Counted from the first letter of the stretch, positions 15,575-37,637 are shown. The stretch is 64,000 nucleotides of DNA from Nanobdellota archaeon (GCA_038044525.1 JBBSZV010000033.1:7131-71130), one strand, 5' to 3'. Translations and numbers: made by a program. Notes: generated by a model not told the origin, from the sequence alone.

Positions 15575-15596
15575 TTTTGTTTTAACCTCGCGAGTA

Positions 15597-23178: not shown

Positions 23179-23397
23179 ACTTTTTTTTGCTTGGAACTTA
23201 ATTATAATCTTTGCTGTAACCTAAAATATATCTTAAAGTTTAACTGTCCAAGCTAGTTAAATGCAATCTGTGGCATGTATTTTCTGTATTAATCTTTATA
23301 ACCCTAATTCAAATCGAAATTAGCACGCTTTATGCTCTCTCTTTTCCGACGCCACCCTAGCATAATCTTTATAAATCACAAGACTATCTTTAAGCCA

Positions 23398-25383
23398 ATG
23401 CGAAAAAAGAGGTACACGATAGATAGCAGTAGCCTTAATCTCCCTTATCCGGCTTCTAAAAAAGGACAAGTGACTGTTTTTATTATTTTAGGGATTCTAT
23501 TGCTTCTGTCTTTAACTTTAGTGGTTTTTCTGCGTAAAGAACTTATAACCTTTAAACCGGGAGAAATAATCCCGACGGAAAAAGGAAAAGTGGAAAATTT
23601 CCTCACCAGCTGTCTGGAAAAAGTCGGCGGGGAAGCATTGCAGCTGGTGGGAGTGCAGGGCGGTTATATCACCATCCCTTCTGATGTTGTCAATGATTAC
23701 AACGCCCGTTTACAGGTTTCTCCTGCGCACATGGTTCCTTACTGGGCTTACGGTCAGAATGTACGCATACCTTCTCTTCCGGAAATAAAGGAACAAATGG
23801 ACAATTATATCGAAAAAAATATGCGCGCGTGCTTATTTTCACAGGAAGCTTTTCAGGAAGCTTATGATTTGATTGAAAAGAGCGATTTGATCTCCAATAC
23901 TGAAATAGTAGAAGGAAAAGTCATATTCAACCTGCGCTGGGAAATGGAAATACGCAGTAAAAACGGAGAGATCATTACGGAATTAATCAACCACATCGCT
24001 GAATCTCCAGTGCGTCTGAAAGAGGTATATGAAGTTTCCCGATCCATCGTAGAGAAAGAACTGGACACTTTGAAGCTGGAAGACATCACCCAAGATCTGA
24101 TTGCCTTGGAGCATCCTGATGTTCCGGTAGCCGGAATGGAATTGAGCTGTGCAAAAAAGAAGTGGGACCCTAATACGGTCCGCAGTACCTTACTGGAATT
24201 GATCCGCATCAATCTCCGGGAACTTAAAGTGCAGGGGACTGATCATGTGAATTTTCCGGAAGAATTGACCTATTACCAAAACCATTATGTCTGGGATCTT
24301 GGTTCTGAGTTCAAACATCCTTCGGTAAGCGTCTTATTTAATTTCGACCGGAGCTATCCTTACATTTTTGCCGTAACTCCTTTGAACGGGAATAGGATGG
24401 AAAGCTCCCAATTGGGGGGAACAGATGTGCTTTCTTTCTTATGCATCCAGACCTGGAAATTTACCTACGATATTATTTATCCCGTGCTGGTCAAAGTAAA
24501 AGATGAAACTACAGGATACACTTTCAATACCGCTTTTACAGTGCATTTAGTCAGAAACCTGCCCAGCCGGGAAGAAGCGGTGCCGCGAGCTTCATATTTT
24601 ACCGGTACAGTGAACGATGAAGAATATTGCGGAAACATGAATATGCCCATGACTGTCTTCGCGTACGAATTAGTGGAAAATGAACCGACCGGCGTCTATG
24701 ACCGCGAACCGCTGGAAGGGGTGCAGACCAGTTTTACTTGTCTGAAATATAAATGCGAAATGCTAGAAAGCGAATATGATTTTGCCGGACGCGGGCATGT
24801 TGCCGGGTACACCACTAATTTCCCCTACTGCGTCGGAGGGATACTGCGCGGAGAAAAAGAAGGATATAAAGAAAGCTGGCAGAGATTAGTCACGGCTGTA
24901 GGAAAAGAAGTAGAGCTGGATTTAGTTCCAGTCGCTGAAGTGCCGGTGCGGAAAATCACTTTAGTGAAACATCAGCTTGGCAGCGACGGGAAAGCGGGAC
25001 CAGCAAAAGAACTGTCTGATGAAGAGTTAGGCTTAGTCAAATTGATACTGCGCAAGAAAAGTGATCTTCCCGGAAGCGTTTTCCACGAATCAAGCATAAC
25101 CAAGGCGAAAACCAGCGATGAAGAAGTTTTAGGAGAAGAAGCGTTGGAATTTTTAGCCCGGGCAGATTTTACTTACGAATTAGAGGTCAGCGTGTTAGGG
25201 TCGGAAAAATTTATCGGCGGATATAAAGGAAACTGGGGCGTTTCATGGGATGCATTGCGTAATGCGGAAGAAATAGTGTTCCATGTCGTAAGCAGGGATG
25301 GCGCGAGCGAAGAGCAAATGTTCGATTTAATGTTGAACCTGCCGGAATACAGCCGATACGTTCCCTCGCCGGAAATAAGATAG
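23398..25383 (+). CDS. Large membrane-anchored (N-terminal TM) extracellular protein. First gene of the giant-protein operon.
   Basis: The likely start MRKKRY lies at 23398. The ORF-track start at 23332 has an unlikely leader. The TM helix reads QVTVFIILGILLLLSLTLVVFL. 660 aa with no known motif. Confidence 0.5.
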   Translation: MRKKRYTIDSSSLNLPYPASKKGQVTVFIILGILLLLSLTLVVFLRKELITFKPGEIIPTEKGKVENFLTSCLEKVGGEALQLVGVQGGYITIPSDVVNDYNARLQVSPAHMVPYWAYGQNVRIPSLPEIKEQMDNYIEKNMRACLFSQEAFQEAYDLIEKSDLISNTEIVEGKVIFNLRWEMEIRSKNGEIITELINHIAESPVRLKEVYEVSRSIVEKELDTLKLEDITQDLIALEHPDVPVAGMELSCAKKKWDPNTVRSTLLELIRINLRELKVQGTDHVNFPEELTYYQNHYVWDLGSEFKHPSVSVLFNFDRSYPYIFAVTPLNGNRMESSQLGGTDVLSFLCIQTWKFTYDIIYPVLVKVKDETTGYTFNTAFTVHLVRNLPSREEAVPRASYFTGTVNDEEYCGNMNMPMTVFAYELVENEPTGVYDREPLEGVQTSFTCLKYKCEMLESEYDFAGRGHVAGYTTNFPYCVGGILRGEKEGYKESWQRLVTAVGKEVELDLVPVAEVPVRKITLVKHQLGSDGKAGPAKELSDEELGLVKLILRKKSDLPGSVFHESSITKAKTSDEEVLGEEALEFLARADFTYELEVSVLGSEKFIGGYKGNWGVSWDALRNAEEIVFHVVSRDGASEEQMFDLMLNLPEYSRYVPSPEIR

Positions 25384-25397
25384 GGGTAGATTAGGTA

Positions 25398-28300
25398 ATG
25401 ATAGGTTCGCAAAAAAAGAGATGCTGGAGAATTTTGGTTTTCATAGTCCTGGGGCTGTTCCTGAATCTTCCGATCGTAAGCGCATTAGAGATATCTAATG
25501 TCCGCGCCGAAATTATTTCACCTACTGAAGCAGAAATATCATGGGAAACTGATGAGCCTGCCGGAAGTTTTGTTGATTATGGTCTTTCAGAAGAAACCCT
25601 CGGAAGAGTCGGCGATGCCAGCCAAGTGGTGGAGCACATAGTAGCGTTATCTGATATTGCGCCGCAGTCAACTTATTATTTTCAGGTGCAGAGCGGAGAA
25701 GTCATAGATAATAATGATGGAAGCCTGTATTCTTTCAATACCCTCGCTCCCGACACTACCGCACCAGAAATAAATGTTGAATTGCCGGCAGCGGTGCAGG
25801 GAAACAGGATTGATTTCTCCGGAACCACTGAATTCGGAGCGACGGTCAATGTTTTTGTGAACGGCCCCTTGTTAAGGGTTGTGGCTGCCGACGCAGCTCT
25901 GCCTGACGATCCGTCACAGGGGAGATTTACCATCACTGATCTGGCTCTGGACAGCAATAAGGATAATCTGGTTAAAATAGAAGTGATTGACCTAGCTGGG
26001 AATGATGCATCGATGCAGGTGACCGTATTTTCAGACACCAGCAAACCAAAATTGGATTTGGTGGTCCTGCCGGAGTTCGTGAGCGAGAAAAATTTTATCC
26101 TGAGAGGGACTATCTCTGAGGAGAGCTCTTATGAGATTTTTATTGCTGAAGATTCTGTCGCTGAAGGTCAAGGAACTGCCTTGCAGGCCGAATTATCTTT
26201 AGAAGAAGGCGGAAACAAGATCAAGATTGTGATTACTGATAAGGCCGGCTGGGTGACTGAAGAGGAATTCAACATCATCTCTGATACCAAAGCACCTAAA
26301 GTAGAATTTGATTTCGCCAAAGGAAAGGAATATTACCAGGGAAATGCAGAGACTGACATTTCAGGGGCTACCGAACCTGGCGCAGAAGTGTATCTATTTA
26401 TTTTCCGTCCACTCACTTATGAATTCACTCCCACCTTTAACAAAGCTTGGGAAAAAGTTACCGCTGATGCGCAGGGAAGGTTTACCTTTGAGGAAGTAGA
26501 TCTGGAAAGCCCACCTATCAGTTTAGAAGATCTTGCTCCACGGCAAATTCCTTCAGGCTTAAATGCTGAAACTATTTTTCCTATAGAACAGATACAGGCG
26601 GCACAGAAATTTACCTATCATGTGTATTTAGTTGCCGAAGATAAAAGCGGCAAAACAGGATATGCAAAAAAGCTGGTCAATATCAATACCTGCTATTCTG
26701 CCGATTTTGATTTTGACGTGCAATCGCTGGCCAGGTTCCAGGCTCCTCTGCGATTAAACCCGACTTTGCTTGATGACGGCAGGGAAGAAGTAACTGCGGT
26801 ATTTAATTTTAGTTACCGCGGGAAAGGAATTTCAACCCAAGGCCAGTCAGCTTTCCAGATCCAGAACGTCCAGTTCGATAAGGCCTGCACTCAAGGGATG
26901 CTGGAAGACGACAGCACTAAGATAGGATGCAATATTTTCCCGCAGCAGCCGCGGCTGATGCCGAATGCTGATAAGACTGCCTGGTATATCACGGCGCCTC
27001 TTTTCACTACAGAAAAGTTCAGCGATAAGAAAGAAGATTTCTGGGACGAATTCGGCAGGCGGCAGATAACGTTCCCTCTGAAAATTAAAATTACTTACCG
27101 TGATAATCTGGGCGGCGGAAAGATGAGCGACCTTAAGACACAGGTATCTTGTTATGAGCTAGGTTATTTCATCGACATACCTCTCGAAAGCAAAAACATG
27201 ATTCCGGATTTCTTAGCTGAAGAAGGTCTGGATGCAATCGAATTTACTATCGATAAAATTGATATTGTTTTGCCTTATCTGGAAAATGCTATTTTAGTTA
27301 CGGGGATTGCCTGGGTAAGTTCGTTCATAGGTAAGTTAGCCGTCAGGTATGCCCGGCTGGTCAGTTCTAAATTAGAAGCTTTCTTCAGCAAAGGAAAAGC
27401 TAAGAATGAGCAATGTCCGGGGGATCAGGAAAAATATTATACCAAGAGTGAGATCCAGCACTGGAGAGAGCTGAAAGCGCGCGGCTTGCTGGAAGGAGAA
27501 GAAAGATTAAGAAAAGATTGGGAAGATGAATCGCAATCGATAGAAGAATTATGTCCGAGCACTGCTGGCCTGTGGGAAGCAGAAAAAGTTATTGATCAAG
27601 CCTACCGCTGGACCGGAGACAGAGTATTATGCCGGACCGTTCCTGCCGGATGGACTTCTACCAAAGATAAACCGGAAATTGATACCGTCATCGCGGGGCA
27701 GAACCAATGCACTGCCTCCAGCCGAGGCGTACCGCTTCTGGAAATTGAGAATTGCGGAAAGCGCATAGAAGAAAATACCAATATTGCTAATCCTAATGCC
27801 AAAGCAGCGCGGTTAGTCGACGAAGGAGAATTCACCTGTTACCAGTCGGGAGATTTCTTGTATTACGCAAATCAAGATTCAGCGACGACATTGCAAAATG
27901 GCGGTTCTTTAGTGCGGCTGGAAAGAGTTCACGATTTTGGTTTGAGCATTCAGCAGGCGGGATTATACGCTGGTGCAGGAGATTTGATTGCCTATCAGCC
28001 GCCAGGTTCTGACCAATATGTCATCGGGCAGGATAAAACCTGTGAACAGGCGTGCAAAAATCCGCGGAAATCCGGCTACCGAGCTTATGTGGAAAAAGGA
28101 TTAAGGACCGTCACTGCCGACGGACAGGAAGGATCTTTTGGCTGTTTCCAGGAAAGGGTCAACGAATTTGGAGATATAAACCCGGTTGGCGTCGCTACTC
28201 AGGATAATCCTAACGATCCCCAAGGGATTGGTTCCAGACAGTTTTCGGCAGGTTATACCCGCGACTGTTTCATCGATTATCAAAAAGGCGGTGTCACTCC

Positions 28301-30848
28301 CGGTGATGCGAATATCAATAATCCTTGTAACGTCCATGATGATTGCACCGGCGGAGCGTTATGTCTTTCCGGCGTTTGTTCCGCGCCTCCGTCTAATAGT
28401 GTTGCGCTAAAAGGATCAACTGACACCACCACCGGTTTATTGCAGTGCGTATGCACATACGACGAAAAGCAAGTGAAACATTATCCCGGTGTCAGGACGG
28501 CTATGAAAGAGCAGAATGGCATCGCTGAAGAGTGGTCTTATCATCAGCAACAAGTATTCAAAGAATCAAATAATCGTTTCGGAACGTATTATCCGGAATG
28601 GAGATATTATGGCGGCCGGGACTTTTCGTCTGCTTTTGGAGCAGATTACCTTTTAGATTATTTCCAGTCGGATAAACAGGTGCATCAAGTCAGCCCCAAC
28701 ACGCAGTTCTTAGGCGCATATCAAACGGTCTGCTTATCGCGGGTAAGAGCGCATTTAATCACATTAAAAGCAATTCTGGAAGGACTGCGCAATTGCATTC
28801 AGGAAGCAAAATACACCGGCCTGCGCGATGCAGGAGTTTGTAAAACTATTTTCACCCAGCAGGTATGCGGTTTAGTCTACAAAGCGATCGCTTACTTTGT
28901 CAACCAATGCAGCCCCTTTGATTTCAATGACGAAAGCAAAGGAACATTAGGGGGCATCGGCGCAGTTACTGAAGCGACCTTCGGCTCTATCGGGGAAGCC
29001 ATGCAGTCGTCCATCGATGATGTGAAAAGCGATTATGGCAACGCGCAGTTGAATAATTATTTTGCTGCCGGCGCAGAAGGATTGACTCAGTCTATGTGCA
29101 TGGCTGCTTTCGGCTACGACTGGCCGTTGGGCGCAGATTTTATTCTTGATGCTGCTTATGCAGTTCCAGGAAAAACAACTGTGCATGTAATTCCCGCGCA
29201 CCGGGAATTGTCAACTTACGATCCTTCTTCTGGGAATGCCGTCTATAATTACGAAGTCGGCGCTTTGATATTGCCGGGCTGCAGGGTCAGAAGTTATAAT
29301 GTTTATCTGAAATGCGTCGGTCCGGAAGATTCCGGAAAACCGGGCGTGCAATGCGGCGAGCAGGGCTGCGACTGCTTGCATACGACAGAAGTGAACTCAT
29401 TATTGGAAGGGGATAAGAAACATTCCCTGGATGGCGGCAGAGGATTTGATCTTAAGCCGAACGGATTTTTCAGCGTTCCCATACCTTCTCCGCAGAAAGT
29501 AAACAAACCGTTCAGGTACGACCACGTCGTGGTAGAGCTGCAGCTGGACCAGTCTGAACAAGGAAATGAAGACAAATGTTACGATACCGGATACGAAGAC
29601 GGAAAATTCTATTTCCCGATCGTTGATGTATCGCCGCCGGGAACGGGAGTATGCCAGGTGCAGCCATTGACGGGAAAATATACTTGTCCTGAATTCATGA
29701 GTTTATTTGGCGGTGAAGAAGGAGCATACCTGCAGGATCCGTACATCAGCTGTTATGATGCCGATACGCGTTCCTGGATTCCGTGCATTACGCCGAATAT
29801 CTTTACCAAGGGCGAAGAGATAAAAGTGCGCGCGGAAGCGGTCAGCGACGGAAAAAAATATTGCGTGAAAATGAGCACTTCGGGATTACCTCAGCAGGAT
29901 GTGCAGTTCCGACAACTGCCAGTGGGCATCCCAGGAAATTTCCCGGTGGAAATGTCTTTAGGTTCAGTCACGCCGAATTTGTTTACTGGTGCAACAACGA
30001 CTATAGTATTAACCGGCGGAGACAAGAGCTGCGAATCTAAATTAAAACTGATAGATTTCCCGGCGGGAGACATCGATACTGCAAGTTTGAAATTTACTTA
30101 CCAGAAATTAGGCGATGATAGTTACAGGATATTTGTTCCAGAAGGAATTTCAATTTCATCTGAAGGCGGTTATAGTGCCAATGGAGCAACTTTAACCAAG
30201 AATGGAAAAGAAGAGCTCACTTCTGCTGAAATACGAGAAGCCGTATTTGACTATAAAGGGATGCGTTTCAGCAACGCTGTCGGCGCTCCGGGAAGCGGGG
30301 ACAGCTGTGAATACAGAGTCAGGGCGGCGGCAGGGGCGCAGTACGCGCAGAACGAAAAGACCATTTCCGTCACCGCAGAATTATTGCAGCCGGATGCGGT
30401 AGGTAATTGTTACAATGCAGAGATCCCGGTCAAGAGCCAGATAGGGTATTCGAGATACACGCAGCCTATTAATCTGCGGTTGGAACCTTTAGTATCGCAG
30501 GCAGCCAGTCAGATGTATCAGGATTTCATGCGTGAAAATTATGCAAAAGTTATCGGCAATGCGGAAAGCATCGTCAACCGCGGCATCTCCGATATCGAAG
30601 ATGCGACCGCATTATATTATCTGGTCGCGGCGAAAATCGCAGACAGCCAGAAAAGGAATGTGGACTGGAAGGTTTCTTTCCGGGAAGATATCTGCGATCT
30701 GATCGGCGTGTTTAAAACCAGAAAATCCGGCAGCATACCTCTCGGCCAATATCCTGACGAAGTCAGGAGCAGCGCAGAATACAAGAAGATAGAAGCATAT
30801 TTCGGCGAGATTGAAAAAGAAGCCCAATGCGGAGTTACGAATGTTTAA
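25398..30848 (+). CDS. Giant secreted protein (1816 aa): signal peptide, an N-terminal fibronectin-III-like domain, Ig-like repeats, and a long Cys-rich C-terminal region.
   Basis: Signal peptide ...VFIVLGLFLNLPIVSALE. The FN3-like segment reads ISNVRAEIISPTEAEISWETDEPAGSFVDYGLSEE...STYYFQVQS. More than 60 Cys lie in the second half, including CNVHDDCTGGALCLSGVCS. Confidence 0.6.
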   Translation: MIGSQKKRCWRILVFIVLGLFLNLPIVSALEISNVRAEIISPTEAEISWETDEPAGSFVDYGLSEETLGRVGDASQVVEHIVALSDIAPQSTYYFQVQSGEVIDNNDGSLYSFNTLAPDTTAPEINVELPAAVQGNRIDFSGTTEFGATVNVFVNGPLLRVVAADAALPDDPSQGRFTITDLALDSNKDNLVKIEVIDLAGNDASMQVTVFSDTSKPKLDLVVLPEFVSEKNFILRGTISEESSYEIFIAEDSVAEGQGTALQAELSLEEGGNKIKIVITDKAGWVTEEEFNIISDTKAPKVEFDFAKGKEYYQGNAETDISGATEPGAEVYLFIFRPLTYEFTPTFNKAWEKVTADAQGRFTFEEVDLESPPISLEDLAPRQIPSGLNAETIFPIEQIQAAQKFTYHVYLVAEDKSGKTGYAKKLVNINTCYSADFDFDVQSLARFQAPLRLNPTLLDDGREEVTAVFNFSYRGKGISTQGQSAFQIQNVQFDKACTQGMLEDDSTKIGCNIFPQQPRLMPNADKTAWYITAPLFTTEKFSDKKEDFWDEFGRRQITFPLKIKITYRDNLGGGKMSDLKTQVSCYELGYFIDIPLESKNMIPDFLAEEGLDAIEFTIDKIDIVLPYLENAILVTGIAWVSSFIGKLAVRYARLVSSKLEAFFSKGKAKNEQCPGDQEKYYTKSEIQHWRELKARGLLEGEERLRKDWEDESQSIEELCPSTAGLWEAEKVIDQAYRWTGDRVLCRTVPAGWTSTKDKPEIDTVIAGQNQCTASSRGVPLLEIENCGKRIEENTNIANPNAKAARLVDEGEFTCYQSGDFLYYANQDSATTLQNGGSLVRLERVHDFGLSIQQAGLYAGAGDLIAYQPPGSDQYVIGQDKTCEQACKNPRKSGYRAYVEKGLRTVTADGQEGSFGCFQERVNEFGDINPVGVATQDNPNDPQGIGSRQFSAGYTRDCFIDYQKGGVTPGDANINNPCNVHDDCTGGALCLSGVCSAPPSNSVALKGSTDTTTGLLQCVCTYDEKQVKHYPGVRTAMKEQNGIAEEWSYHQQQVFKESNNRFGTYYPEWRYYGGRDFSSAFGADYLLDYFQSDKQVHQVSPNTQFLGAYQTVCLSRVRAHLITLKAILEGLRNCIQEAKYTGLRDAGVCKTIFTQQVCGLVYKAIAYFVNQCSPFDFNDESKGTLGGIGAVTEATFGSIGEAMQSSIDDVKSDYGNAQLNNYFAAGAEGLTQSMCMAAFGYDWPLGADFILDAAYAVPGKTTVHVIPAHRELSTYDPSSGNAVYNYEVGALILPGCRVRSYNVYLKCVGPEDSGKPGVQCGEQGCDCLHTTEVNSLLEGDKKHSLDGGRGFDLKPNGFFSVPIPSPQKVNKPFRYDHVVVELQLDQSEQGNEDKCYDTGYEDGKFYFPIVDVSPPGTGVCQVQPLTGKYTCPEFMSLFGGEEGAYLQDPYISCYDADTRSWIPCITPNIFTKGEEIKVRAEAVSDGKKYCVKMSTSGLPQQDVQFRQLPVGIPGNFPVEMSLGSVTPNLFTGATTTIVLTGGDKSCESKLKLIDFPAGDIDTASLKFTYQKLGDDSYRIFVPEGISISSEGGYSANGATLTKNGKEELTSAEIREAVFDYKGMRFSNAVGAPGSGDSCEYRVRAAAGAQYAQNEKTISVTAELLQPDAVGNCYNAEIPVKSQIGYSRYTQPINLRLEPLVSQAASQMYQDFMRENYAKVIGNAESIVNRGISDIEDATALYYLVAAKIADSQKRNVDWKVSFREDICDLIGVFKTRKSGSIPLGQYPDEVRSSAEYKKIEAYFGEIEKEAQCGVTNV

Positions 30849-31410
30849 ACGGGGAAAGATAGAGATGGAAATGTTTATCGTATTGATCACCATGGTCTTT
30901 ACCAGCGCGGTAATATTATTCTTAGTTTATAGCGGGACTATCGAAGTGAAAGAAGGCGCCTCTTCCGAGCCGGTATTGAACGCAGAATTCCTTCCGGCAG
31001 GAAGGGAAGGCGTCTTGGCGATAAAAGATTTTGATTTCTGCAGTTATGTGGATGAGAATCTTAATTGTTTGGCAGAGCAAGATGAATTTGGAAAAGCCGA
31101 AAATGTTTATGTGCGGTTCGTGGTCGAGAGCAGCGTTACCGGCGGGCAGGCGATACTGCTGCGAAATTATGAGATGCGTAATCCTTCTGGAGAAATAATA
31201 TTACGGGCAGAACAGAAAAATGCTTATAATTTTGAATTAAGCAGCACTAGAAGTACGGAAAATGTGGTCTTCGGAGAATATTTCGTCATCGGCGAGGATG
31301 CGGTTGCCGGAGAGTATACTTTGGATGTGATCATCGAAAATCCATTATTTGAAAAGAAGATAACTTTGACCAAGAGCTTTGAAGTGGTTGACTGGGAGGA
31401 GCAGCCATGA
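30811..31410 (+). CDS. Small membrane-anchored protein in the giant-protein operon.
   Basis: The TM helix reads MEMFIVLITMVFTSAVILFLVYSG. It overlaps the upstream gene by 38 nt and has an ATGA overlap with the downstream gene. Confidence 0.45.
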   Translation: MKKKPNAELRMFKRGKIEMEMFIVLITMVFTSAVILFLVYSGTIEVKEGASSEPVLNAEFLPAGREGVLAIKDFDFCSYVDENLNCLAEQDEFGKAENVYVRFVVESSVTGGQAILLRNYEMRNPSGEIILRAEQKNAYNFELSSTRSTENVVFGEYFVIGEDAVAGEYTLDVIIENPLFEKKITLTKSFEVVDWEEQP

Positions 31411-33845
31411 AAGGAAAAATAATTTTTCTGATCGGTTTGATCTTGGTCAGCGCAGTCTTCGCCCAGCAGGTGCAGGTCGGGACGGTCGGGGTAAATCCTG
31501 TTGGTGTTTACGATGGATGCTCAGGAAAGAGAATAGGATTAGTTGGAGCTTCTAATACGGTGGATATGGACGCTCAGGGGAATAAAGTCCCTTCTTCGTG
31601 GAATAATGTTAACATTATCAAAGTGATGTGCCCTGGCGCTACAGTATTTCTTCATGCGAAAGGGGGAACTTGGCCTGGCGCGCAAGTATCTTTAGTCCAA
31701 GCAGCGATACAAAACGATAATCTTGATTATATGATTCTGGATCCTTCTGCTAATGGCCAGCAGGCTTCTTCAGGTATAACGTCTGAAGGATATAAGGCGG
31801 CAGCGATCAATTTAGCTCAGATAGTAAAAAATAAAAATAAAGATATTAAAGTTATAATGCTGACCAATACTCCGCTTAAAGGGGCTGGCGGCGGATATGG
31901 AACGCCAGAAACGGTGCAAAAAGTTAAGGCTTTCAATGCAGATCTCTTGAATAATAAACTGGGAAGACCTGATTTGATCGATTATGCAGTCGATACTTAT
32001 TCTGCAACTGAAGACCCTGCCGGAAGCGACAGCTGTGGAAAATATTGCGGCGGAGATAATCTTCATTTCGGCGAAGCGGGAAGAAAACAGGTCATGAAAG
32101 CGGTCATGGATATAGTGTTTGGAAATCCGACTGTCGCAACCGCCACAAGCAATGCGCCGGTTTCCCAATCTTTGGGAGCAGAGAATTGCCTGAACAAACA
32201 ACGCTGTGAGGAGATTGATGCGATATGGCTGAAGATCGTGGCCTGGATCAATAATGCGGCGCGGAAAGGGCGTGTTTTTGATACCGTTGACGGGTGGAGA
32301 AATCATCAGGAAGCCCGTCCAACTGTGGTGATAAACCCAACTATAATCAAACCCAGCGCCGTTTCTACTAATTTTTGTATTGCAACTATAGGAACCAACG
32401 AACAGAAAGCGCTGTTGGATACCATCGCCTGGGCCGAAGGAACAAAGGAAAAATATAATCTGATGTTCGGGGGAAAAGAATTTACAACGTATAGCTCGCA
32501 TCCAGTTGAAACCGGAGAGATGCCGGAAAAAGGTTTTCCTTGGCCCGGCGGCACATCCACCGCTGCAGGAAGGTACCAATTTTTATACAGAACTTATAAA
32601 GATCTCCGTGGCCGCGGATTCTTCCAAACGGGATTCTTACCTGCAGAACAAGATAAAGCCGGGTTATGGTTATTAGAGACTAAGCGCGGCCTTTCTCAAA
32701 ATGAATTAGCTATCGCCGTGAATTCAGGCAATCTTGCTCCCGTATGGGATAAATTAGCCGGGGAATGGGCGTCGTTGCCCTGCGATACAACTAATGTGAA
32801 AATAGGAGATAGAACTTATTGTTTGGCAAAAGGAAAAAGTTTTTATCCCGGCCAGACGGCAAGAAGTTATCAGGAACTGAAAACCGTCTATCAAACTTGT
32901 CTGCAGTACCACGCCACCGGAGGACTTTCCGGCGCAGCTTCTTCTCCAGCAGCTTCAGGAATTTCTAATGCGGCATCAGAAGCATTCGACTTTGTTTATG
33001 GCATCTGGGGGGGGGGCAGTTCTCCTGAAACCAAGCAAGGAAGCGTAGTCAGCTTCAAGAACAGCATCCTTGAACAGGCCTGTACTGCGGAAAGCTTAGT
33101 GTGCGTCATCCCTACTAAAAATGTGGGCAAGCGGGAAGCTGGCGGCATAGGCAATTGCCGTGCCGGAATGGTGCAGGTAGGGAATATCTGTGTAGACCAA
33201 TACGAAGCGATGCTGGCAAATAAAAATAATGGAGAAGTGTGGTCTCCCTATTGCGCTCCCGGAACAGAGATAAGCGAACTGCAGGCGGTTTCTATCAGCG
33301 GAGTTGTTCCCCAGGCGACCATCAATCAGCTGCAAGCCAAACAAGCGTGCGAAAATGCAGGGAAAAGATTGTGCACGGACGAAGAATGGTTATCAATCTG
33401 TCAGGGAGCAGAAGGAAGGACATATCCTTATGGCAATGTTTTACAGCAGGAAACGTGTAACGACCAGACCATTGCCAAGCCTTACGCGCACGTAACTGAT
33501 GCTACCGTAAAAGAATATTGTCCAAACCATCAAGAGTTTTATAAAAAACAGCCGGCCGGAGTAACTTACAACACCAATCCTTGGATGATCCACCCTAAAA
33601 ATAATCAGAATGCCGTTTCTTTGGAAGTAACCGGCAACAAGGCAGGATGTAAAACTCCTGAGCAGGTTTATGATTTAGTCGGAAATATTGCAGAATGGAC
33701 CGCCGATCCGGCAGGAACGTTCAGGGGGGGATATTTCCAACTAGCAGCAGGAACAAATAATGGCTGTTTGTACAAAACAACTTTTCATCCGGCATCTTAT
33801 ACCGATTACTCCATAGGTTTCCGCTGCTGCGCCGGCCTTTCTTAA
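31407..33845 (+). CDS. Secreted multidomain protein with a central lysozyme-superfamily-like region and a C-terminal FGE-sulfatase/C-type-lectin-fold (DUF323-like) domain.
   Basis: Signal peptide MKGKIIFLIGLILVSAVFA. The segment IAWAEGTKEKYNLMFGGKEFTTYSSHP shows the E-x8-(D/N)-x5-T pattern of T4-lysozyme-like enzymes. The C-terminus reads ...YDLVGNIAEWTADP...GGYFQ...YSIGFRCCAGLS, which resembles FGE/SUMF1-fold domains ending in GFRC. Confidence 0.5.
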   Translation: MKGKIIFLIGLILVSAVFAQQVQVGTVGVNPVGVYDGCSGKRIGLVGASNTVDMDAQGNKVPSSWNNVNIIKVMCPGATVFLHAKGGTWPGAQVSLVQAAIQNDNLDYMILDPSANGQQASSGITSEGYKAAAINLAQIVKNKNKDIKVIMLTNTPLKGAGGGYGTPETVQKVKAFNADLLNNKLGRPDLIDYAVDTYSATEDPAGSDSCGKYCGGDNLHFGEAGRKQVMKAVMDIVFGNPTVATATSNAPVSQSLGAENCLNKQRCEEIDAIWLKIVAWINNAARKGRVFDTVDGWRNHQEARPTVVINPTIIKPSAVSTNFCIATIGTNEQKALLDTIAWAEGTKEKYNLMFGGKEFTTYSSHPVETGEMPEKGFPWPGGTSTAAGRYQFLYRTYKDLRGRGFFQTGFLPAEQDKAGLWLLETKRGLSQNELAIAVNSGNLAPVWDKLAGEWASLPCDTTNVKIGDRTYCLAKGKSFYPGQTARSYQELKTVYQTCLQYHATGGLSGAASSPAASGISNAASEAFDFVYGIWGGGSSPETKQGSVVSFKNSILEQACTAESLVCVIPTKNVGKREAGGIGNCRAGMVQVGNICVDQYEAMLANKNNGEVWSPYCAPGTEISELQAVSISGVVPQATINQLQAKQACENAGKRLCTDEEWLSICQGAEGRTYPYGNVLQQETCNDQTIAKPYAHVTDATVKEYCPNHQEFYKKQPAGVTYNTNPWMIHPKNNQNAVSLEVTGNKAGCKTPEQVYDLVGNIAEWTADPAGTFRGGYFQLAAGTNNGCLYKTTFHPASYTDYSIGFRCCAGLS

Positions 33846-33890
33846 TATCTAAAGCATACTTTTTTAAAATTAGTTTTGTTTTAACCTTCC

Positions 33891-35780
33891 ATGAGCGTCG
33901 AATCATTCTTAGAGATCTGTAAACGGCAGTATGAGCCGCAGCATCTTTCCGTATTTAATGCAGCTTTGGCCTTTTCTCAAAAGCATCTCGGCGAAGTAAA
34001 ACGATTGGCAGGTGATTCCTTTTTTGACCATAATGTCCGGGCGGGAGAAATCTTGGCGGACAGCAAAGTGTCGCCGGAAGTGGTGGTCGCCGGTCTGCTG
34101 CATGGGATTTTAAAATATTCTTCTGAAAAAGAGGTCTTAAATATTTTCGGCAAAGAGATCCTGCTTTTGCTGAAAGGAGAAGAAGAAATCAAGGCGGTCA
34201 AATCAAAAAATCCTCTTCTGGAAGCCGAAGCCCTGCGGAGAATATTGCTTGCGACATTAAGAGACGTACGGGTTATTTTTGTTAAGCTCGCCGCTAAATT
34301 AGATAATCTTAGGGCCATCTCGGTGCTTCCCGAGGAAGACCAGAGACGCATCGCAGAAGAAGTAATGGAAGTATATGCGCCGCTGGCTAACAGATTGGGA
34401 TTGGAGAAAATAAAAAATCCTCTGGAAGATTTGGCGCTGCAGATCCTGAATCCGGAAAAATATCGCGAAATAACCGAATTCCTGGAAGAATCACGTGAGC
34501 AGCGGGAAGCGTTGATCAAAGAAATGATTCAATCGGTGAAAGAGTTGGCCGCGGGAAAAGTTGAGATCATCAAAATCAAAGGCCGTTCCAAGCACATCTA
34601 CAGCATCTACAAGAAGCTGGTGCAGCGCTGCGTGCCTTTAGCAGAACAATATGATTTGTCGGGCATCAGGGTAATTGTTCCGGAAGTAAATGATTGCTAT
34701 ACTCTCTTGGGACTCTTGCACGAGAAGCTCGAGTCCGCGGAAGGAAGATTAAAAGATTATATCGCCAACCCTAAACCTAACTTTTATCGTTCTCTTCACA
34801 CCGGAATTCTGTCGTCATCAGGAAAAATTGTGGAGATTCAGATTCGCACCCCGGAAATGGATGAGCTTGCTGAGGAAGGGCTGGCTGCGCACTGGCGGTA
34901 TAAGAAACTGAATTCCGATGAATTATTTGAAAAGAAAATTGCCTGGCTGAAAGGAGTTTTAGATATGCAGAAGGAAGAAAACCACGAATTTTTAGAGATG
35001 GCTAAAGTAGACGTGTTTGGGGATAATATCTATTGCTACACGCCAAAAGGCGACGTTAAAGAACTGCCTAAGGGAGCAAATATCCTTGATTTTGCTTATA
35101 TGATCCATGAAGAAGTCGGAAACCATGCGGTAGGAGCGCACGTGAACGGAAAATTCGTCTCTTTGAAACAGCAGCTTTCTTCCGGAGATGTAGTGGAGAT
35201 ACTTACCAACAAAAGCCAGCGCCCCCGACGCGACTGGCTGAAATTAGTCAAATCTGCGAATGCCAGAAATAAGATTCGGAAATCTCTTAAAGAATATGAT
35301 AAGCTTCCGGCTCTTCATTTTAAGCAGCTTAAACCGGTGGTGACAGAAGAGCAGGGCATTTTAGCAGAAGCGCCCGACTATGCCAGCGCAGTATGCGTAT
35401 TAGCTAAATGCTGCAATCCTCTGCCGGGAGAAGATATTGCCGGCTTAATCACTAAAAGAAGAGTCATTTCCGTCCACAGGATCGATTGCCGCGCGGCATT
35501 GAAAGAGCAGGAGCGCTGGGTGGCGGTGCAATGGAAAAATGGATTCAACCAAAAAATAAGATTTTATGCTGTAGCTGAGGAAAGGAGCGGCCTGTTGGCT
35601 GATCTTTTAAACGTCATAGCCAATACCGGTTTTGAGGTTAAGGAAGCAAAAGCAAAATTGTTAGACATAACCTTAGCGCAATGCTCTTTTTTAGTGATAC
35701 CAAAAGATTTGGAACATCTGAAAGAACTGGTAAGGCGGGCGCAGAAAGTAAGGGGGATAAAAAAGATGTATTTCGGATGA
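33891..35780 (+). CDS. Long RelA/SpoT homolog (RSH) with HD-like, (p)ppGpp synthetase, TGS and ACT domains.
   Basis: The synthetase motifs are GRSKHIYSIYKKL, IRVIV...CYTLLGLLH, KDYIANPKPNFYRSLHT, VEIQIRTPEMDELAEEGLAAHWRYK. The TGS domain reads YCYTPKGDVKELPKGANILDFAYMIHEEVGNHAVGAHVNGKFVSL. In the HD region, LLHGIL replaces the usual LLHDVVED, so the hydrolase may be inactive. Confidence 0.75.
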   Translation: MSVESFLEICKRQYEPQHLSVFNAALAFSQKHLGEVKRLAGDSFFDHNVRAGEILADSKVSPEVVVAGLLHGILKYSSEKEVLNIFGKEILLLLKGEEEIKAVKSKNPLLEAEALRRILLATLRDVRVIFVKLAAKLDNLRAISVLPEEDQRRIAEEVMEVYAPLANRLGLEKIKNPLEDLALQILNPEKYREITEFLEESREQREALIKEMIQSVKELAAGKVEIIKIKGRSKHIYSIYKKLVQRCVPLAEQYDLSGIRVIVPEVNDCYTLLGLLHEKLESAEGRLKDYIANPKPNFYRSLHTGILSSSGKIVEIQIRTPEMDELAEEGLAAHWRYKKLNSDELFEKKIAWLKGVLDMQKEENHEFLEMAKVDVFGDNIYCYTPKGDVKELPKGANILDFAYMIHEEVGNHAVGAHVNGKFVSLKQQLSSGDVVEILTNKSQRPRRDWLKLVKSANARNKIRKSLKEYDKLPALHFKQLKPVVTEEQGILAEAPDYASAVCVLAKCCNPLPGEDIAGLITKRRVISVHRIDCRAALKEQERWVAVQWKNGFNQKIRFYAVAEERSGLLADLLNVIANTGFEVKEAKAKLLDITLAQCSFLVIPKDLEHLKELVRRAQKVRGIKKMYFG

Positions 35781-36617: not shown

Positions 36618-37637
36618 TTATTTCATCATCTTCTTAATCAAATCAACCACCCGGCAGCTGTAACCCCATTCGTTGTCATACCACGCGACTATCTTGAGGA
36701 ATTTCTTATCGACGACCGAAGTCAGCTTGGCATCGTAGATCGCAGAGTGCGGGTTATGGATAATGTCAGTAGAGACCAATTCGTCTTCAGAATATTGTAT
36801 TATCCCTTTTAATTTTCCGCCGGCCGCTTTTTTAAAGATCTCATTAACTTCTTTCGGAGTCACTTCACGCTGGGTTTCGATGGTGAAGTCAGTTACGCTG
36901 CCGTCAGCGACGGGAACCCTGAAAGCCAGGCCTCTGACCTTTCCCCGCAATTCCGGGATGGCTTCTACTGCAGCGACATCTGCTCCCGTAGAAGCCGGGA
37001 TGATGTTGATTGCCGCAGCCCGGGAACGGCGCAGATCTTTATGCGGGCCGTCCACCAGTTTCTGCGAGGACGTATAAGCATGGATGGTAGTGAAAAAACA
37101 GCGTTTGATCCCGATACGATCTTCCACCACTTTGAGGATAGGGGCGACGCAATTGGTCGTGCAGGAAGCATTAGAGACGATCAGGTGCTTGTTTTTTTTA
37201 TAAGCGTGTTCGTTGACTCCGGAAACTAAAGTGACAGTATTAGCCGGACAGGCTTTATCCGCTTCGCATTTGCAGGGCGCAGAGATCAATACTCTTTTTG
37301 CTCCAGCCTTAAGATGCGCCGCGGCCTTGTAAGGGTCGGTAAAACGGCCGGTACTTTCCACCACCACATCAATGTTCAGCTTTTTCCAAGGGAGCTTGGA
37401 AGGGTCCTGTTCCGCCAGGACTTTAATTTTCTTTTTTCCGACCGCCAGATAGCCATCACTGGCAATAACATTCTCGGAGAAAAGCCCGTGGACAGAATCA
37501 TATTTCAGCAGGTGAGCAAGAGTTTTGTTATCGGTAAGATCATTGACCGCAACTATGTTTATGCTCTTATCTTTCCAAGCAGCGCGGAAGAAAGTCCTGC
37601 CGATACGGCCAAAACCATTAATGGCCACATTTATCAT
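36618..37637 (-). CDS. gap: Glyceraldehyde-3-phosphate dehydrogenase, class I (bacterial/eukaryotic type).
   Basis: The N-terminus reads INVAINGFGRIGR. The active site reads SNASCTTNCVAPILKV. 339 aa. Confidence 0.9.
   Translation of the reverse strand: MINVAINGFGRIGRTFFRAAWKDKSINIVAVNDLTDNKTLAHLLKYDSVHGLFSENVIASDGYLAVGKKKIKVLAEQDPSKLPWKKLNIDVVVESTGRFTDPYKAAAHLKAGAKRVLISAPCKCEADKACPANTVTLVSGVNEHAYKKNKHLIVSNASCTTNCVAPILKVVEDRIGIKRCFFTTIHAYTSSQKLVDGPHKDLRRSRAAAINIIPASTGADVAAVEAIPELRGKVRGLAFRVPVADGSVTDFTIETQREVTPKEVNEIFKKAAGGKLKGIIQYSEDELVSTDIIHNPHSAIYDAKLTSVVDKKFLKIVAWYDNEWGYSCRVVDLIKKMMK

What the first reader, a model, noticed from the sequence alone, without database searches (positions are those of the whole stretch)
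23332..33845. Four-gene plus-strand operon encoding a 1816-aa Cys-rich giant surface protein and partner membrane or secreted proteins
The four genes are consecutive and overlapping (starts at 23398, 25398, 30811 and 31407; overlaps of 38 nt and ATGA). They are a TM-anchored 660-aa protein, a 1816-aa secreted protein, a 199-aa TM protein and an 812-aa secreted protein. The giant protein has an FN3-like N-terminus, Ig-like repeats and a C-terminal half with more than 60 Cys. Giant extracellular proteins in reduced archaeal genomes are candidates for host-cell attachment or interaction machinery. The composition of this operon is not one I recognise.
Basis: partly seen in the sequence, partly recalled or inferred. 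Interest (0 to 1): 0.7.

Follow-up and report, generated by a model that had tools for sequence, protein, structure and literature searches.

The report
Archaeal operon for breaching bacterial walls
A tiny DPANN archaeon, which has no bacterial-type cell wall of its own, keeps a conserved operon that links a giant secreted protein of unknown fold and its anchored partners to swappable enzymes that cut bacterial cell walls, so it is a concrete candidate for how these archaea attach to or attack bacteria.

Summary
The four co-oriented, overlapping genes are real. Corrected coordinates are ORF1 23398-25383, ORF2 25398-30848, ORF3 30841-31410 and ORF4 31407-33845. ORF2 has 43 Cys, not more than 60.

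ORF1, ORF2 and ORF3 are adjacent in every one of 76 species-level Woesearchaeota/Nanoarchaeota loci whose contig reaches them. They diverge roughly in step with the neighbouring RelA/SpoT gene, somewhat faster. The gene after ORF3 varies in its catalytic domains (SLT, GH104-like, M23, M15, M74, amidase and others). In 55 of 56 loci it carries one copy of a previously undescribed ~45-aa module that occurs nowhere else in the flanks.

In four lineages, four different murein-hydrolase families are fused directly to the C-terminus of the giant protein.

ORF1, the ORF2 core and ORF3 have no Pfam, PHROG, NCBIfam or PDB relatives, and the ORF2 core has no fold match.

Best reading (confidence 0.6): an extracellular scaffold that presents interchangeable murein hydrolases against bacterial walls. 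Murein hydrolases in these archaea are published. I found no description of the operon, the module or the fusions.

The parts
23361..23376 (+). Conserved archaeal promoter block (BRE/TATA; TTTATAAA at 23368-23375), centred about 26 nt upstream of the ORF1 ATG. This implies a leaderless operon transcript.
   Evidence: Read directly. The block and its spacing to the ATG are invariant in 8 relatives, while the sequence upstream of it cannot be aligned.
23398..25383 (+). ORF1, 661 aa. It has an N-terminal class-III-like signal/anchor (KKGQVT plus a hydrophobic helix, residues 21-45, nt 23458-23532). An extracellular alpha/beta domain follows (about residues 60-400), then tandem beta-sandwich domains (about 410-661). 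All 8 Cys are invariant.
   Evidence: 347 homologues, none with a Pfam domain. Invariant residues. AF2 model pLDDT 83. Foldseek matches the beta-sandwich part to SdrD B-type domains (10ps, E 7e-8). The motif [KR][GA]Q[VI]T[IV] is present in 66 of 69 homologues. ORF1 lies directly upstream of ORF2 in 71 of 71 GTDB loci and in every remote-branch locus whose contig reaches upstream.
25398..30848 (+). ORF2, 1816 aa, a secreted giant protein. Domain layout: signal peptide 1-29; FN3-like 32-115; Ig-like repeats 116-425; conserved disulfide-rich core 426-1650; less conserved C-terminal region 1651-1816, which is where hydrolase domains are fused in other lineages.
   Evidence: About 85 full-length homologues and 531 representative clusters. 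36 Cys are invariant across 33 sequences. AF2 model of residues 425-1624: pLDDT 76.5, pTM 0.61. No PDB fold match. No PDB sequence relative outside the Ig repeats.
26670..30269 (+). The ORF2 core that was modelled (residues 425-1624). It comprises a beta-sandwich (439-592), a 63-residue helix (604-666) containing a moderately hydrophobic segment (631-649), a helical region (683-769), an alpha/beta region (781-1024), a helical bundle (1048-1254, the most conserved part) and beta-rich domains (1261-1624).
   Evidence: The hydrophobic segment does not reach transmembrane grade consistently across the family (mean KD 0.8-2.1).
30841..31410 (+). ORF3, 189 aa. It has an N-terminal basic-Gly-x4-Glu motif plus a hydrophobic helix (pilin-like, or a signal anchor) and a small globular domain with two invariant Cys. 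Its start overlaps the ORF2 stop by 8 nt.
   Evidence: ORF3 is adjacent to ORF2 in 67 of 68 GTDB loci that reach it. It has no Pfam, PHROG, NCBIfam or PDB relatives.
31407..33845 (+). ORF4, 812 aa, a secreted multidomain peptidoglycan hydrolase. Its start overlaps the ORF3 stop (ATGA).
31524..32126 (+). ORF4 SGNH/GDSL-type esterase domain (about residues 40-240). GASNT Ser49 and D217-x-x-H220 are present.
   Evidence: PDB SGNH hydrolase 9kr0, E 8e-5. Pfam Lipase_GDSL_2 is below its cut-off here (13.7 bits), but clear in 15 of 61 sister proteins. The motifs were read from the translation.
32181..32315 (+). ORF4 residues 259-303: the ~45-aa module C-x5-C-x-E-I-D-x-[VI]-W ... [VW/VF]-D ... W. It is shared by all the hydrolases that follow the trio.
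   Evidence: An iterated HMM finds one copy in each of 64 downstream hydrolases. A six-frame scan of all loci and the whole window gave hits only downstream of ORF3 on the same strand. The module has no significant PDB sequence relative (best E 0.018).
32349..32924 (+). ORF4 lambda-lysozyme-type (GH104-like) lytic transglycosylase domain (residues 315-506). Glu344 aligns with the catalytic Glu19 of lambda R.
   Evidence: PDB 1am7/3d3d, E 2.6e-8, with the AWAEGT / AWSEGT alignment. PHROG endolysin phrog_90, E 4.5e-26.
33291..33716 (+). ORF4 C-terminal FGE-sulfatase-like domain (Pfam match at residues 629-770). It is probably a binding domain.
   Evidence: Pfam PF03781, E 1.9e-7, 31.5 bits against a cut-off of 23.3. 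The same domain is present in 14 of 61 sister hydrolases.

Best explanation
The locus encodes an extracellular apparatus of Woesearchaeales-type DPANN archaea that presents murein (bacterial peptidoglycan) hydrolases.

**Proposed components**
- ORF1 is anchored by an N-terminal class-III-like helix and carries beta-sandwich stalk domains.
- ORF2 is a secreted, disulfide-rich 1,816-aa scaffold.
- ORF1 and ORF2 form an ancient, vertically inherited pair. ORF3, a small anchored protein, joins them in this clade.
- One or two secreted hydrolases are co-translated downstream. They attach to the scaffold, most likely at the C-terminal end of ORF2, through a shared ~45-aa module.

**Proposed action of ORF4 in this window**
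- The SGNH esterase would remove O-acetyl groups from MurNAc.
- The lambda-type lytic transglycosylase would then cut the glycan strand.
- The FGE-like domain would help to bind.

**Proposed target**
The archaeon has no murein, so the substrate is the wall of a bacterium. The complex would open the sacculus where the archaeon touches a bacterial host, prey or competitor.

**Shown:** gene order and its conservation; hydrolase domain identities and the catalytic Glu; the module and its restriction to this locus; C-terminal fusions; secretion signals; invariant Cys.

**Inferred:** the physical complex; the docking role of the module; action on living bacteria at contact sites.
For: 1. The ORF1-ORF2-ORF3 order is conserved in 71/71, 76/76 and 68/68 GTDB species-level loci that reach each gene. 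Identities fall to about 33-37%.
2. The trio diverges roughly in step with the neighbouring RelA/SpoT gene, somewhat faster. Median identity to the window is ORF1 57%, ORF2 48%, ORF3 48% and RelA 62%.
3. The next gene overlaps the ORF3 stop in 39 of 62 loci.
4. Among 61 such genes the Pfam counts are: SLT 14, GDSL 15, FGE-like 14, DUF2272 10, M23 5, Phage_lysozyme2 5, M15_4 4, Amidase_2 2, Glucosaminidase 2, Hydrolase_2 2, M74 1, Polysacc_deac 1.
5. These proteins are often not homologous to one another. Yet each has one copy of the same ~45-aa module, placed 30-60 aa before whichever catalytic domain follows.
6. The module gene is present in 55 of 56 GTDB loci with more than 1.1 kb downstream of ORF3. 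The module occurs nowhere else in the roughly 1.4 Mb of flanks or in the 64-kb window.
7. All 64 module proteins have N-terminal signal-like segments.
8. Four different murein-hydrolase families are fused to the C-terminus of ORF2 homologues:
   - GH104-like in P0070/L041, E 8e-34 to window ORF4
   - Peptidase_M74 in P0307
   - Phage_lysozyme2 in P0314
   - PG_binding_1 plus SLT in the remote-branch protein P0364
9. No module was detected in the four fused giants, and the three whose linkers I read are joined by Pro/Thr/Ser-rich linkers. This fits a docking role for the module.
10. ORF4 keeps the catalytic Glu of lambda lysozyme.
11. The hydrolase cassette is exchanged between near-identical strains. 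Window and L013 are 89% identical in DNA up to 31055, unalignable from 31055 to 33836, and alignable again after that. Domain shuffling between close relatives is common. This pattern fits an interaction-facing component.
12. Published work already proposes that murein hydrolases of Woese-/Pacearchaeota target bacterial walls (PMC8204110, PMC9723730, PMC12352652).
Against: - There is no experimental evidence of a complex, of muralytic activity or of localisation.
- Conserved adjacency and fusions show functional coupling. They do not show contact-dependent action.
- The module always lies just N-terminal of the catalytic domain. It could equally be a substrate-binding or regulatory element rather than a docking element.
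- One locus (L070) has a DUF2272+SLT gene without the module.
- In the remote branch of the ORF2 family the module and ORF3 are not detectable. A hydrolase is adjacent or fused in only 2 of the 6 contexts with downstream sequence. The ancestral role of the ORF1-ORF2 pair may therefore be broader than wall attack.
- The strong sequence constraint on ORF2 is unusual for a host-recognition protein.
- I could not check whole genomes for murein synthesis genes or for module copies elsewhere.
Confidence: 0.6

Rival explanations
1. Loose coupling. The hydrolases are freely secreted bacteriolysins or foraging enzymes that harvest peptidoglycan fragments from living or dead bacteria. The ORF1-3 proteins are a separate surface structure that merely shares a transcript. 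The module is a lineage-specific peptidoglycan-binding or folding element.
For: Freely secreted archaeal peptidoglycan hydrolases that kill bacteria without partner proteins are documented (PMC12352652). Scavenging of dead-cell peptidoglycan has been proposed for Pacearchaeota (PMC11537232). The module always sits next to the catalytic domain. Remote ORF1-ORF2 pairs often lack an adjacent hydrolase.
Against: Four independent C-terminal fusions of hydrolase domains to the giant protein. Overlap of the next gene's start with the ORF3 stop in most loci. Module genes found only at this locus within the sequence held. No module was detected in the fused forms.
Confidence: 0.17
2. Type-IV-filament accessory complex. 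ORF1 and ORF3 are pilin-like proteins processed by a prepilin peptidase. They prime or cap an archaeal type IV pilus that carries ORF2 and the hydrolase at its tip, analogous to minor pilins plus PilY1.
For: The ORF1 N-terminus is [KR][GA]-Q-[VI]-T-[IV] followed by a hydrophobic helix. It is nearly invariant (66 of 69) and resembles Q+1 class III signals. Many ORF3 homologues have basic-G/A-x4-E/Q followed by a hydrophobic helix (49 of 70). Epd-type TFF system 1 is reported in some DPANN (bioRxiv 10.64898/2026.04.22.720090).
Against: No pilus ATPase, platform protein or prepilin peptidase appeared among the called genes of the eight loci whose gene tables I read, or among the window proteins I scanned. 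The ORF1 model has a broken N-terminal helix (21-51, then 61-86) and no pilin match in Foldseek. The ORF3 +1 residue (K/R) is atypical. A plain signal anchor explains the same features.
Confidence: 0.1
3. Self-directed wall remodelling. These archaea build a murein-like wall, and the operon is their own autolysin/divisome-type machinery.
For: Operons that pair structural proteins with dedicated lytic transglycosylases are typical of bacterial trans-envelope machines (general knowledge).
Against: No murein synthesis genes appeared among the window proteins I scanned; several ORFs were not scanned. An S-layer protein is encoded in the window. The published literature treats DPANN as lacking murein (PMC8204110, PMC12352652). 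Rapid cassette swapping of bond specificities is not expected of housekeeping autolysins.
Confidence: 0.03
4. Mobile-element or provirus module, for example tail-like lysin genes of an integrated archaeal virus.
For: The ORF4 lysozyme domain matches phage endolysin and tail-lysozyme PHROGs. An IS element lies 9 kb downstream.
Against: The trio has no PHROG hits. No ORF2 relative was found in 2.9 million IMG/VR contigs. The locus sits in a conserved chromosomal neighbourhood (enolase, RelA/SpoT, PAC2) and diverges roughly in step with RelA.
Confidence: 0.02

Closest known systems
Large extracellular murein lytic-transglycosylase proteins of Woesearchaeota/Pacearchaeota (AR20 gene, Castelle 2015; fam00969 in 'Module 98', Castelle 2021, PMC8204110; GH23 genes, Vigneron 2022, PMC9723730)
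   Same: Same organisms and the same idea: secreted murein hydrolases in wall-less DPANN archaea, taken as a sign of episymbiosis or predation on bacteria. ORF4 and its sister proteins belong to this phenomenon.
   Different: Those reports list single hydrolase genes or co-occurring protein families. In the held library I found no description of the conserved ORF1-ORF2-ORF3 operon, the shared 45-aa module, the cassette swapping or the fusions to the giant protein.
Secreted archaeal peptidoglycan hydrolases that kill bacteria (Halogranum salarium Woldo/Danwoldo; PMC12352652)
   Same: Archaeal enzymes of bacterial or phage ancestry aimed at bacterial walls. That paper notes Nanoarchaeota as especially rich in diverse hydrolase architectures.
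   Different: Those enzymes act alone as soluble toxins. Here the hydrolases are genetically tied to a conserved three-protein scaffold and, in some lineages, are covalently fused to it.
Specialised hydrolases of bacterial and phage envelope-crossing machines (phage tail or virion-associated lysins, T4SS VirB1-type, T6SS Tae/Tge effectors; my own knowledge)
   Same: Works alike: a constant structural machine paired with a modular, exchangeable muralytic domain set (SLT, M23, M15, amidase, tail lysozyme). The muralytic part is sometimes fused to a structural protein and sometimes separate.
   Different: There is no homology of ORF1-3 to any phage or secretion-system protein. No ATPase or tube genes were seen, though the secretion-system membership features were not formally tested. 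The setting is an archaeon acting outward on a foreign wall.
Cellulosome scaffoldin with dockerin-bearing enzymes (my own knowledge)
   Same: Possible working analogy: a large non-catalytic extracellular scaffold plus diverse polymer-degrading enzymes that share one small docking module.
   Different: No cohesin or dockerin domains were detected. The docking role of the 45-aa module is inferred, not shown. There is one module per enzyme, and no repeated receptor domain was identified in ORF2.
Giant surface proteins of other DPANN, such as the SPEARE proteins of Nanohaloarchaeota (my own knowledge)
   Same: Very large secreted proteins in reduced archaea, thought to mediate host contact.
   Different: There is no sequence relationship. 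Those target archaeal hosts and carry protease or nuclease domains. This family is half the size, strongly conserved, Cys-rich and coupled to murein hydrolases.

Membership tests
Lambda-lysozyme-type lytic transglycosylase (GH104-like) - ORF4 residues 315-506 | Significant sequence similarity to phage lambda R lysozyme across the catalytic domain | tested here: met
   PDB 1am7/3d3d, E 2.6e-8, ORF4 330-458 against chain residues 5-128. PHROG endolysin phrog_90, E 4.5e-26.
Lambda-lysozyme-type lytic transglycosylase (GH104-like) - ORF4 residues 315-506 | Catalytic glutamate (Glu19 of lambda R, motif AWSEGT) | tested here: met
   ORF4 has AWAEGT, and Glu344 aligns with Glu19 (alignment). That Glu19 is the catalytic residue is from my own knowledge.
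Lambda-lysozyme-type lytic transglycosylase (GH104-like) - ORF4 residues 315-506 | Cleavage of MurNAc-GlcNAc bonds with formation of a 1,6-anhydro product | not testable with these tools
   Needs an enzyme assay on sacculi.
SGNH/GDSL hydrolase - ORF4 residues ~40-240 | Match to the family profile at the curated threshold | tested here: inconclusive
   Pfam Lipase_GDSL_2 scores 13.7 bits against a cut-off of 32.9. PDB SGNH hydrolase 9kr0, E 8e-5, over residues 126-235. Sister proteins score up to E 2.6e-18.
SGNH/GDSL hydrolase - ORF4 residues ~40-240 | Block I nucleophile Ser (GDS-like) and block V D-x-x-H | tested here: met
   G47-A-S49-N-T and D217-N-L-H220, read from the translation. Blocks II and III were not examined.
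FGE-sulfatase-like domain - ORF4 C-terminus | Pfam PF03781 above the gathering score | tested here: met
   E 1.9e-7, 31.5 bits against a cut-off of 23.3, residues 629-770. The catalytic Cys pair of true formylglycine-generating enzymes was not examined.
Archaeal type IV pilin / class III signal peptide proteins - ORF1 and ORF3 | N-terminal [KR][GA] cleavage motif followed by a ~20-residue hydrophobic helix | tested here: inconclusive
   ORF1 has KKG-QVT plus a hydrophobic stretch. The motif is present in 66 of 69 homologues, with Q24, T26, F28, I29 and G32 invariant. The ORF3 motif is present in 49 of 70, with an atypical +1 K/R. There is no Pfam class-III-signal hit. A signal anchor would look the same.
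Archaeal type IV pilin / class III signal peptide proteins - ORF1 and ORF3 | Genomic association with a pilus ATPase, platform protein and prepilin peptidase | tested here: not met
   None appeared among the called genes of L001-L003 and L080-L086, or among the window proteins scanned. Whole genomes were not examined.
Archaeal type IV pilin / class III signal peptide proteins - ORF1 and ORF3 | Pilin fold: a long continuous alpha1 helix packed on a beta-sheet | tested here: inconclusive
   The ORF1 model has helices 21-51 and 61-86 separated by a low-confidence break. No pilin appears among the Foldseek hits. ORF3 was not modelled.
Repeat adhesins (Bap / Ca2+-stabilised tandem-repeat adhesins, FN3/Ig stalks) - ORF2 | The bulk of the protein is made of recognised adhesin repeats | tested here: not met
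   Only residues ~32-425 give weak FN3/Ig/Bap-type hits, and all Pfam and NCBIfam hits are below their cut-offs. Residues 426-1816 have no sequence or fold relative.
Phage or virus tail-lysin module | Structural partners homologous to viral proteins, or the locus found on viral contigs | tested here: not met
   ORF1-3 have no PHROG hit. IMG/VR holds no relative of ORF2. The neighbourhood is chromosomal and conserved.
Cellulosome-type cohesin-dockerin system | Dockerin and cohesin domains | tested here: not met
   No such Pfam hits in ORF1-4 or in the 61 sister hydrolases. The resemblance is functional only.

The most novel reading that the evidence does not exclude
The ORF1-ORF2(-ORF3) complex is a previously unrecognised, archaea-specific, contact-dependent machine for penetrating bacterial envelopes. 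The exchangeable hydrolases drill through the sacculus. The ORF2 core is a new fold with a 63-residue helix that carries a shielded hydrophobic segment next to conserved helical bundles. This core then engages or inserts into the bacterial membrane to make the feeding or attachment junction. If so, much of the Woesearchaeales radiation would be epibionts or predators of bacteria rather than of archaea.
Probability: 0.25. Interest if true: 0.9.

Novelty: new variant of a known kind. Interest (0 to 1): 0.72.

Why it matters
Woesearchaeales are among the most widespread uncultivated archaea, and neither their hosts nor their way of life is known. Earlier genomic surveys noted isolated murein hydrolase genes.

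This analysis shows that those genes are the variable end of a conserved, vertically inherited operon. Its core proteins (531 representative clusters for the giant protein alone) have no known relatives or fold. That gives three things:

1. A defined set of proteins to look for at archaeon-bacterium contact sites by proteomics, antibodies or cryo-ET.
2. A testable docking module.
3. A natural library of archaeal muralytic enzymes with many bond specificities.

If the reading is correct, it points to bacteria as partners or prey of a major archaeal lineage. It would also be the first molecular apparatus proposed for that interaction.

Tried and rejected
1. **Mid-protein transmembrane helix in ORF2 (631-649).** Rejected. 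It is the only such segment. It lies inside a predicted 63-residue helix. Its hydropathy falls below transmembrane grade in many homologues. The downstream 1,100 residues carry invariant Cys and a knottin/EGF-like insert typical of extracellular proteins.
3. **Profile searches against PDB sequences.** ORF1 and ORF3 profiles gave no hits, and the module profile gave only a non-significant hit (E 0.018).
4. **PHROGs and NCBIfam for ORF1-3.** Nothing useful.
5. **Module-to-trio linkage test.** I tried twice to test this without bias, by scanning metagenome contigs with the module alignment. 
6. **ORF3 homologues in the remote branch.** hhalign found no relation between ORF3 and the 234-283-aa genes that follow the giant there.
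7. **Direct homology between ORF4 and the hydrolases of distant loci.** None beyond the module.
8. **Viral origin.** Rejected.
9. **ORF3 tracking the hydrolase cassette.** Not general. ORF3 was swapped together with the cassette in L013, but stayed at 89% identity in the L010/L011 pair while the hydrolase changed.
10. **Sigma-70 promoter and terminator scans.** Not used, because the host is an archaeon.


Full report
**1. The observation**

Searches confirm four consecutive plus-strand ORFs. One search lists only short minus-strand ORFs inside the region.

- The context is archaeal and DPANN-like. The window encodes a LonB-type AAA protein, an S_layer_C protein, an AMP-phosphorylase-like protein and many PKD/CARDB exoproteins.
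- GTDB locus L004 ('Nanoarchaeota archaeon H32-bin054_1') is 98% identical over ORF2.
- The ORF1 start at 23398 is right, and the first ATG at 23332 is not used. A block GCATAA(T/C)CTTTATA(A/T)AT (23361-23376; TATA at 23368-23375) is invariant in eight relatives and keeps a fixed distance to the ATG. Everything upstream of it cannot be aligned. The TATA centre lies about 26 nt before the ATG, as expected for a leaderless archaeal transcript (general knowledge).
- ORF3 most likely starts at ATG 30841. Homologues are called at 184-190 aa and align from MxKKG. The overlap with ORF2 is therefore 8 nt.
- ORF3 and ORF4 share ATGA.
- ORF2 has 43 Cys, 42 of them after residue 431. It does not have more than 60.

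**2. The fourth gene is a murein hydrolase**

ORF4 has the following layout:

- A signal-peptide-like N-terminus.
- An SGNH-type region. The Pfam hit is below threshold. PDB 9kr0 matches at E 8e-5. Ser49 in GASNT and D217-x-x-H220 are present.
- A lambda-lysozyme-type domain. PDB 1am7/3d3d match at E 2.6e-8. AWAEGT aligns with AWSEGT, so Glu344 matches the catalytic Glu19. PHROG endolysin phrog_90 matches at E 4.5e-26.
- An FGE-sulfatase-like C-terminal domain, above the Pfam cut-off.

O-acetylation of MurNAc C6 blocks lytic transglycosylases, and SGNH esterases remove it (established knowledge of the Ape/LT relationship). The esterase-then-transglycosylase order therefore makes mechanistic sense. 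This step is an inference.

**3. Conservation of the unit**

- ORF2 has about 85 full-length homologues at 35-100% identity, all from Nanoarchaeota/Woesearchaeota metagenome bins. Below them come only FN3-level hits.
- A scan of one genome per GTDB species found 108 relatives. 76 loci were kept.
- ORF1 lies directly upstream in 71 of 71 loci that reach that far.
- ORF3 lies downstream in 68 of 68 loci that reach that far. It is immediately adjacent in 67. In L078 it is displaced by 4.5 kb.
- In the most distant of the first loci examined (L001), identity is ORF1 37% (E 9e-170), ORF2 35% and ORF3 30% (E 4e-37).
- Across 27 loci the trio diverges roughly in step with the neighbouring RelA/SpoT gene, somewhat faster. 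Median identity to the window is 57%, 48% and 48% against 62% for RelA.
- The flanks hold housekeeping genes such as enolase, RelA/SpoT and PAC2.
- No relative exists in IMG/VR, and ORF1-3 have no PHROG hit.
- This is therefore a vertically inherited chromosomal operon, not a mobile element.

**4. The variable slot and the shared module**

- The gene after ORF3 overlaps the ORF3 stop in 39 of 62 loci. In 27 of them the overlap is the 4-nt one seen in the window.
- Its length ranges from 390 to 1,068 aa. Its catalytic content differs between lineages, and window ORF4 shows no BLAST similarity to the two hydrolases of L002.
- Pfam counts on 61 such proteins: SLT 14, Lipase_GDSL_2 15, FGE-sulfatase 14, DUF2272 10, Peptidase_M23 5, Phage_lysozyme2 5, Peptidase_M15_4 4, Amidase_2 2, Glucosaminidase 2, Hydrolase_2 2, Peptidase_M74 1, Polysacc_deac_1 1. 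Six are enolase, meaning no hydrolase sits directly after ORF3 in those loci.
- Despite this variety, single-linkage BLAST joined 64 of the proteins.
- The link is a ~45-aa module, C-x4-5-C-x-E-I-D-x-[VA]-W-x-K-[IV] ... [VW]-D ... W-x2-F-x3-Y. It is present exactly once per protein. The Asp and two Trp are nearly or fully invariant.
- The module lies 30-60 residues N-terminal of whichever catalytic domain follows (SLT, GH104-like, M23 or VanY), often after an SGNH domain.
- I scanned all 79 loci then held and the whole 64-kb window in six frames. This gave 68 hits, all on the operon strand within 9 kb downstream of ORF3, and none elsewhere.
- 55 of 56 GTDB loci with more than 1.1 kb after ORF3 have the module. 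The exception, L070, has a DUF2272+SLT gene without it.
- Nine loci have two module genes, typically a glycosidase plus a peptidase.
- All 64 module proteins have N-terminal signal-like segments.
- The module has no significant PDB sequence relative (best E 0.018).

**5. Cassette dynamics**

Window and L013 are 93% identical in ORF2. They are 89% identical in DNA from 23355 to 31055. They cannot be aligned from 31055 to 33836, which covers the last ~120 aa of ORF3 plus all of ORF4. They align again from 33836.

Other close pairs show partial domain replacement in the hydrolase while the trio stays at 85-95% identity. So a constant core is combined with a fast-shuffling enzyme cassette.

**6. 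Fusions**

Four ORF2 homologues carry a murein-hydrolase domain after their normal C-terminus:

- P0070/L041: a GH104-like domain, 41% identical to window ORF4 residues 321-502, E 8e-34.
- P0307: Peptidase_M74.
- P0314: Phage_lysozyme2.
- P0364: PG_binding_1 plus SLT.

That is four different catalytic families at the same position. P0364 belongs to the remote branch described in section 8.

No module was detected in these fused giants. In the three whose C-terminal sequences I read (P0070, P0307, P0314) the join is a Pro/Thr/Ser-rich linker. This is what one expects if the module replaces a covalent link, but the sample is small.

Some homologues also carry a transglutaminase-like core after the FN3 domain.

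**7. What the core proteins look like**

*ORF1*
- 347 homologues, none with a Pfam domain.
- The AF2 model has pLDDT 83. It shows a hydrophobic helix at 21-51, a second helix at 61-86, an alpha/beta domain to about residue 400, then tandem beta-sandwiches.
- The beta-sandwiches resemble SdrD B-type domains (Foldseek 10ps, E 7e-8). The N-terminal domain has no match.
- All 8 Cys are invariant.
- The N-terminal [KR][GA]-Q-[VI]-T-[IV] motif is almost universal (66 of 69). It resembles Q+1 class III signals, but a signal anchor cannot be excluded.

*ORF2*
- A signal peptide with a VSA|LE-like site, which is conserved.
- An FN3 domain plus Ig-like repeats. These are weak hits only.
- A core modelled at pLDDT 76.5 and pTM 0.61.
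- 36 Cys are invariant across 33 sequences.
- The best-conserved stretch is the helical bundle at 1026-1260.

*ORF3*
- A small anchored domain with two invariant Cys and no detectable relatives.

*Supporting observations*
- A DsbA-like thioredoxin is encoded 8 kb downstream in the window.
- DsbD and thioredoxin genes follow the giant gene in L085.
- Both fit extracellular disulfide formation.

**8. Depth of the family**

- An exhaustive phmmer search of the ORF2 core against 1.84 billion representatives found 531 clusters at E<=1e-3 and 190 at E<=1e-30. These include 27-32%-identical proteins of 1,500-2,700 aa.
- I looked up seven such remote proteins. An ORF1-sized gene (630-698 aa) sits directly upstream in the six whose contig extends upstream. 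It was confirmed as an ORF1 homologue in the four tested (HMM E 1e-105 to 1e-133).
- In those contexts the downstream small gene is unrelated to ORF3, and the module is not detected.
- A hydrolase is present in only two of these contexts: fused in L084, and two genes upstream in L083.
- ORF1+ORF2 is therefore the ancient pair. ORF3 and the module-bearing cassette are an elaboration specific to this clade.

**9. Interpretation**

The most economical reading is an extracellular scaffold (ORF1, ORF2, ORF3) that carries interchangeable murein hydrolases. These are aimed at bacterial walls, because the archaeon has none.

Confidence is 0.6. The coupling is strongly supported by synteny, start-stop overlap of adjacent genes, module restriction and four fusions. 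The complex itself, the docking role of the module and contact-dependent action are all inferred.

Rivals considered:
- Soluble bacteriolysins or foraging enzymes with an unrelated surface structure (0.17).
- A type-IV-filament accessory complex (0.10). This is compatible with the main reading as regards function.
- Self-wall remodelling (0.03).
- A mobile element (0.02).

**10. Comparison with what is known, and novelty**

Murein hydrolases in Woese-/Pacearchaeota, and their possible use against bacteria, are published (PMC8204110, PMC9723730, PMC10936187, PMC12352652, PMC11537232).

Five full-text searches found no description of this operon, the module, the cassette exchange or the fusions. 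The library is incomplete, so absence is not proof.

The logic resembles phage tail lysins, hydrolases associated with secretion systems, and cellulosomes. Membership in the phage and cellulosome classes was tested and failed. Secretion-system membership was not formally tested, although ORF1-3 gave no Pfam, NCBIfam, PHROG or PDB hits.

I rate it a new variant of a known kind: hydrolase-armed surface machinery built from uncharacterised protein families in archaea. Interest is 0.72.

Noticed in passing
window 33891-35780 (+): A full-length long RelA/SpoT homologue (HD_4, RelA_SpoT, TGS, ACT_4) lies 45 nt after ORF4. A homologue lies 1-6 kb downstream of the trio in about 30 other loci. Long RSH enzymes are unusual in archaea (my own knowledge), which suggests an old bacterial acquisition that is fixed in this lineage.
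   Followed up: partly
window 36618-37637 (-): A bacterial/eukaryotic-type GAPDH (Gp_dh_N plus Gp_dh_C). This is another bacterial-like housekeeping gene in a DPANN genome.
   Followed up: no
window 41527-42261 (-); L085 11494-13408: The window encodes a DsbA-like thioredoxin. In a remote-branch locus, DsbD_TM and thioredoxin genes lie just downstream of the giant gene. These could be the disulfide machinery for the Cys-rich exoproteins.
   Followed up: no
window 42936-43853 (-): An IS-type transposase (DDE_Tnp_1 plus DUF772).
   Followed up: no
window 13187-20461 (-): A block of four minus-strand genes for putative surface proteins (795, 472, 270 and 823 aa), with PKD, CARDB and Wzt_C-like hits. 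It runs divergently from the operon region, with three further minus-strand genes in between.
   Followed up: no
window 55264-57846 (+): An 860-aa protein with an S_layer_C match spread over almost its whole length. It is the likely S-layer protein.
   Followed up: no
L005, L006, L010, L013 and about 30 other GTDB loci: Many records that carry the trio are titled 'uncultured Methanosarcinales archaeon' (TPA_asm MAGs). Their proteins are nevertheless 64-93% identical to those of Nanoarchaeota/Woesearchaeota MAGs and share the same neighbourhood. The taxon label looks wrong.
   Followed up: no
window 33845-33891, compared with 28 other loci: An enolase gene of about 410 aa sits within a few genes downstream of ORF3 in 28 loci, usually after the hydrolase cassette and, where RelA/SpoT is present, just before it. 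It is absent at that place in the window and in L004, L013 and L028.
   Followed up: partly
L078 15409-19903: This is the only locus where ORF3 is not adjacent to ORF2. About 4.5 kb is inserted between them. The ORF3 homologue there is followed by a Peptidase_M74 gene.
   Followed up: no
window ORF2 residues 971-995 (nt ~28308-28382): A short Cys-knot / EGF-like insert (weak CarbpepA_inh, EB and DUF7107 hits) lies within the least conserved part of the ORF2 core.
   Followed up: no
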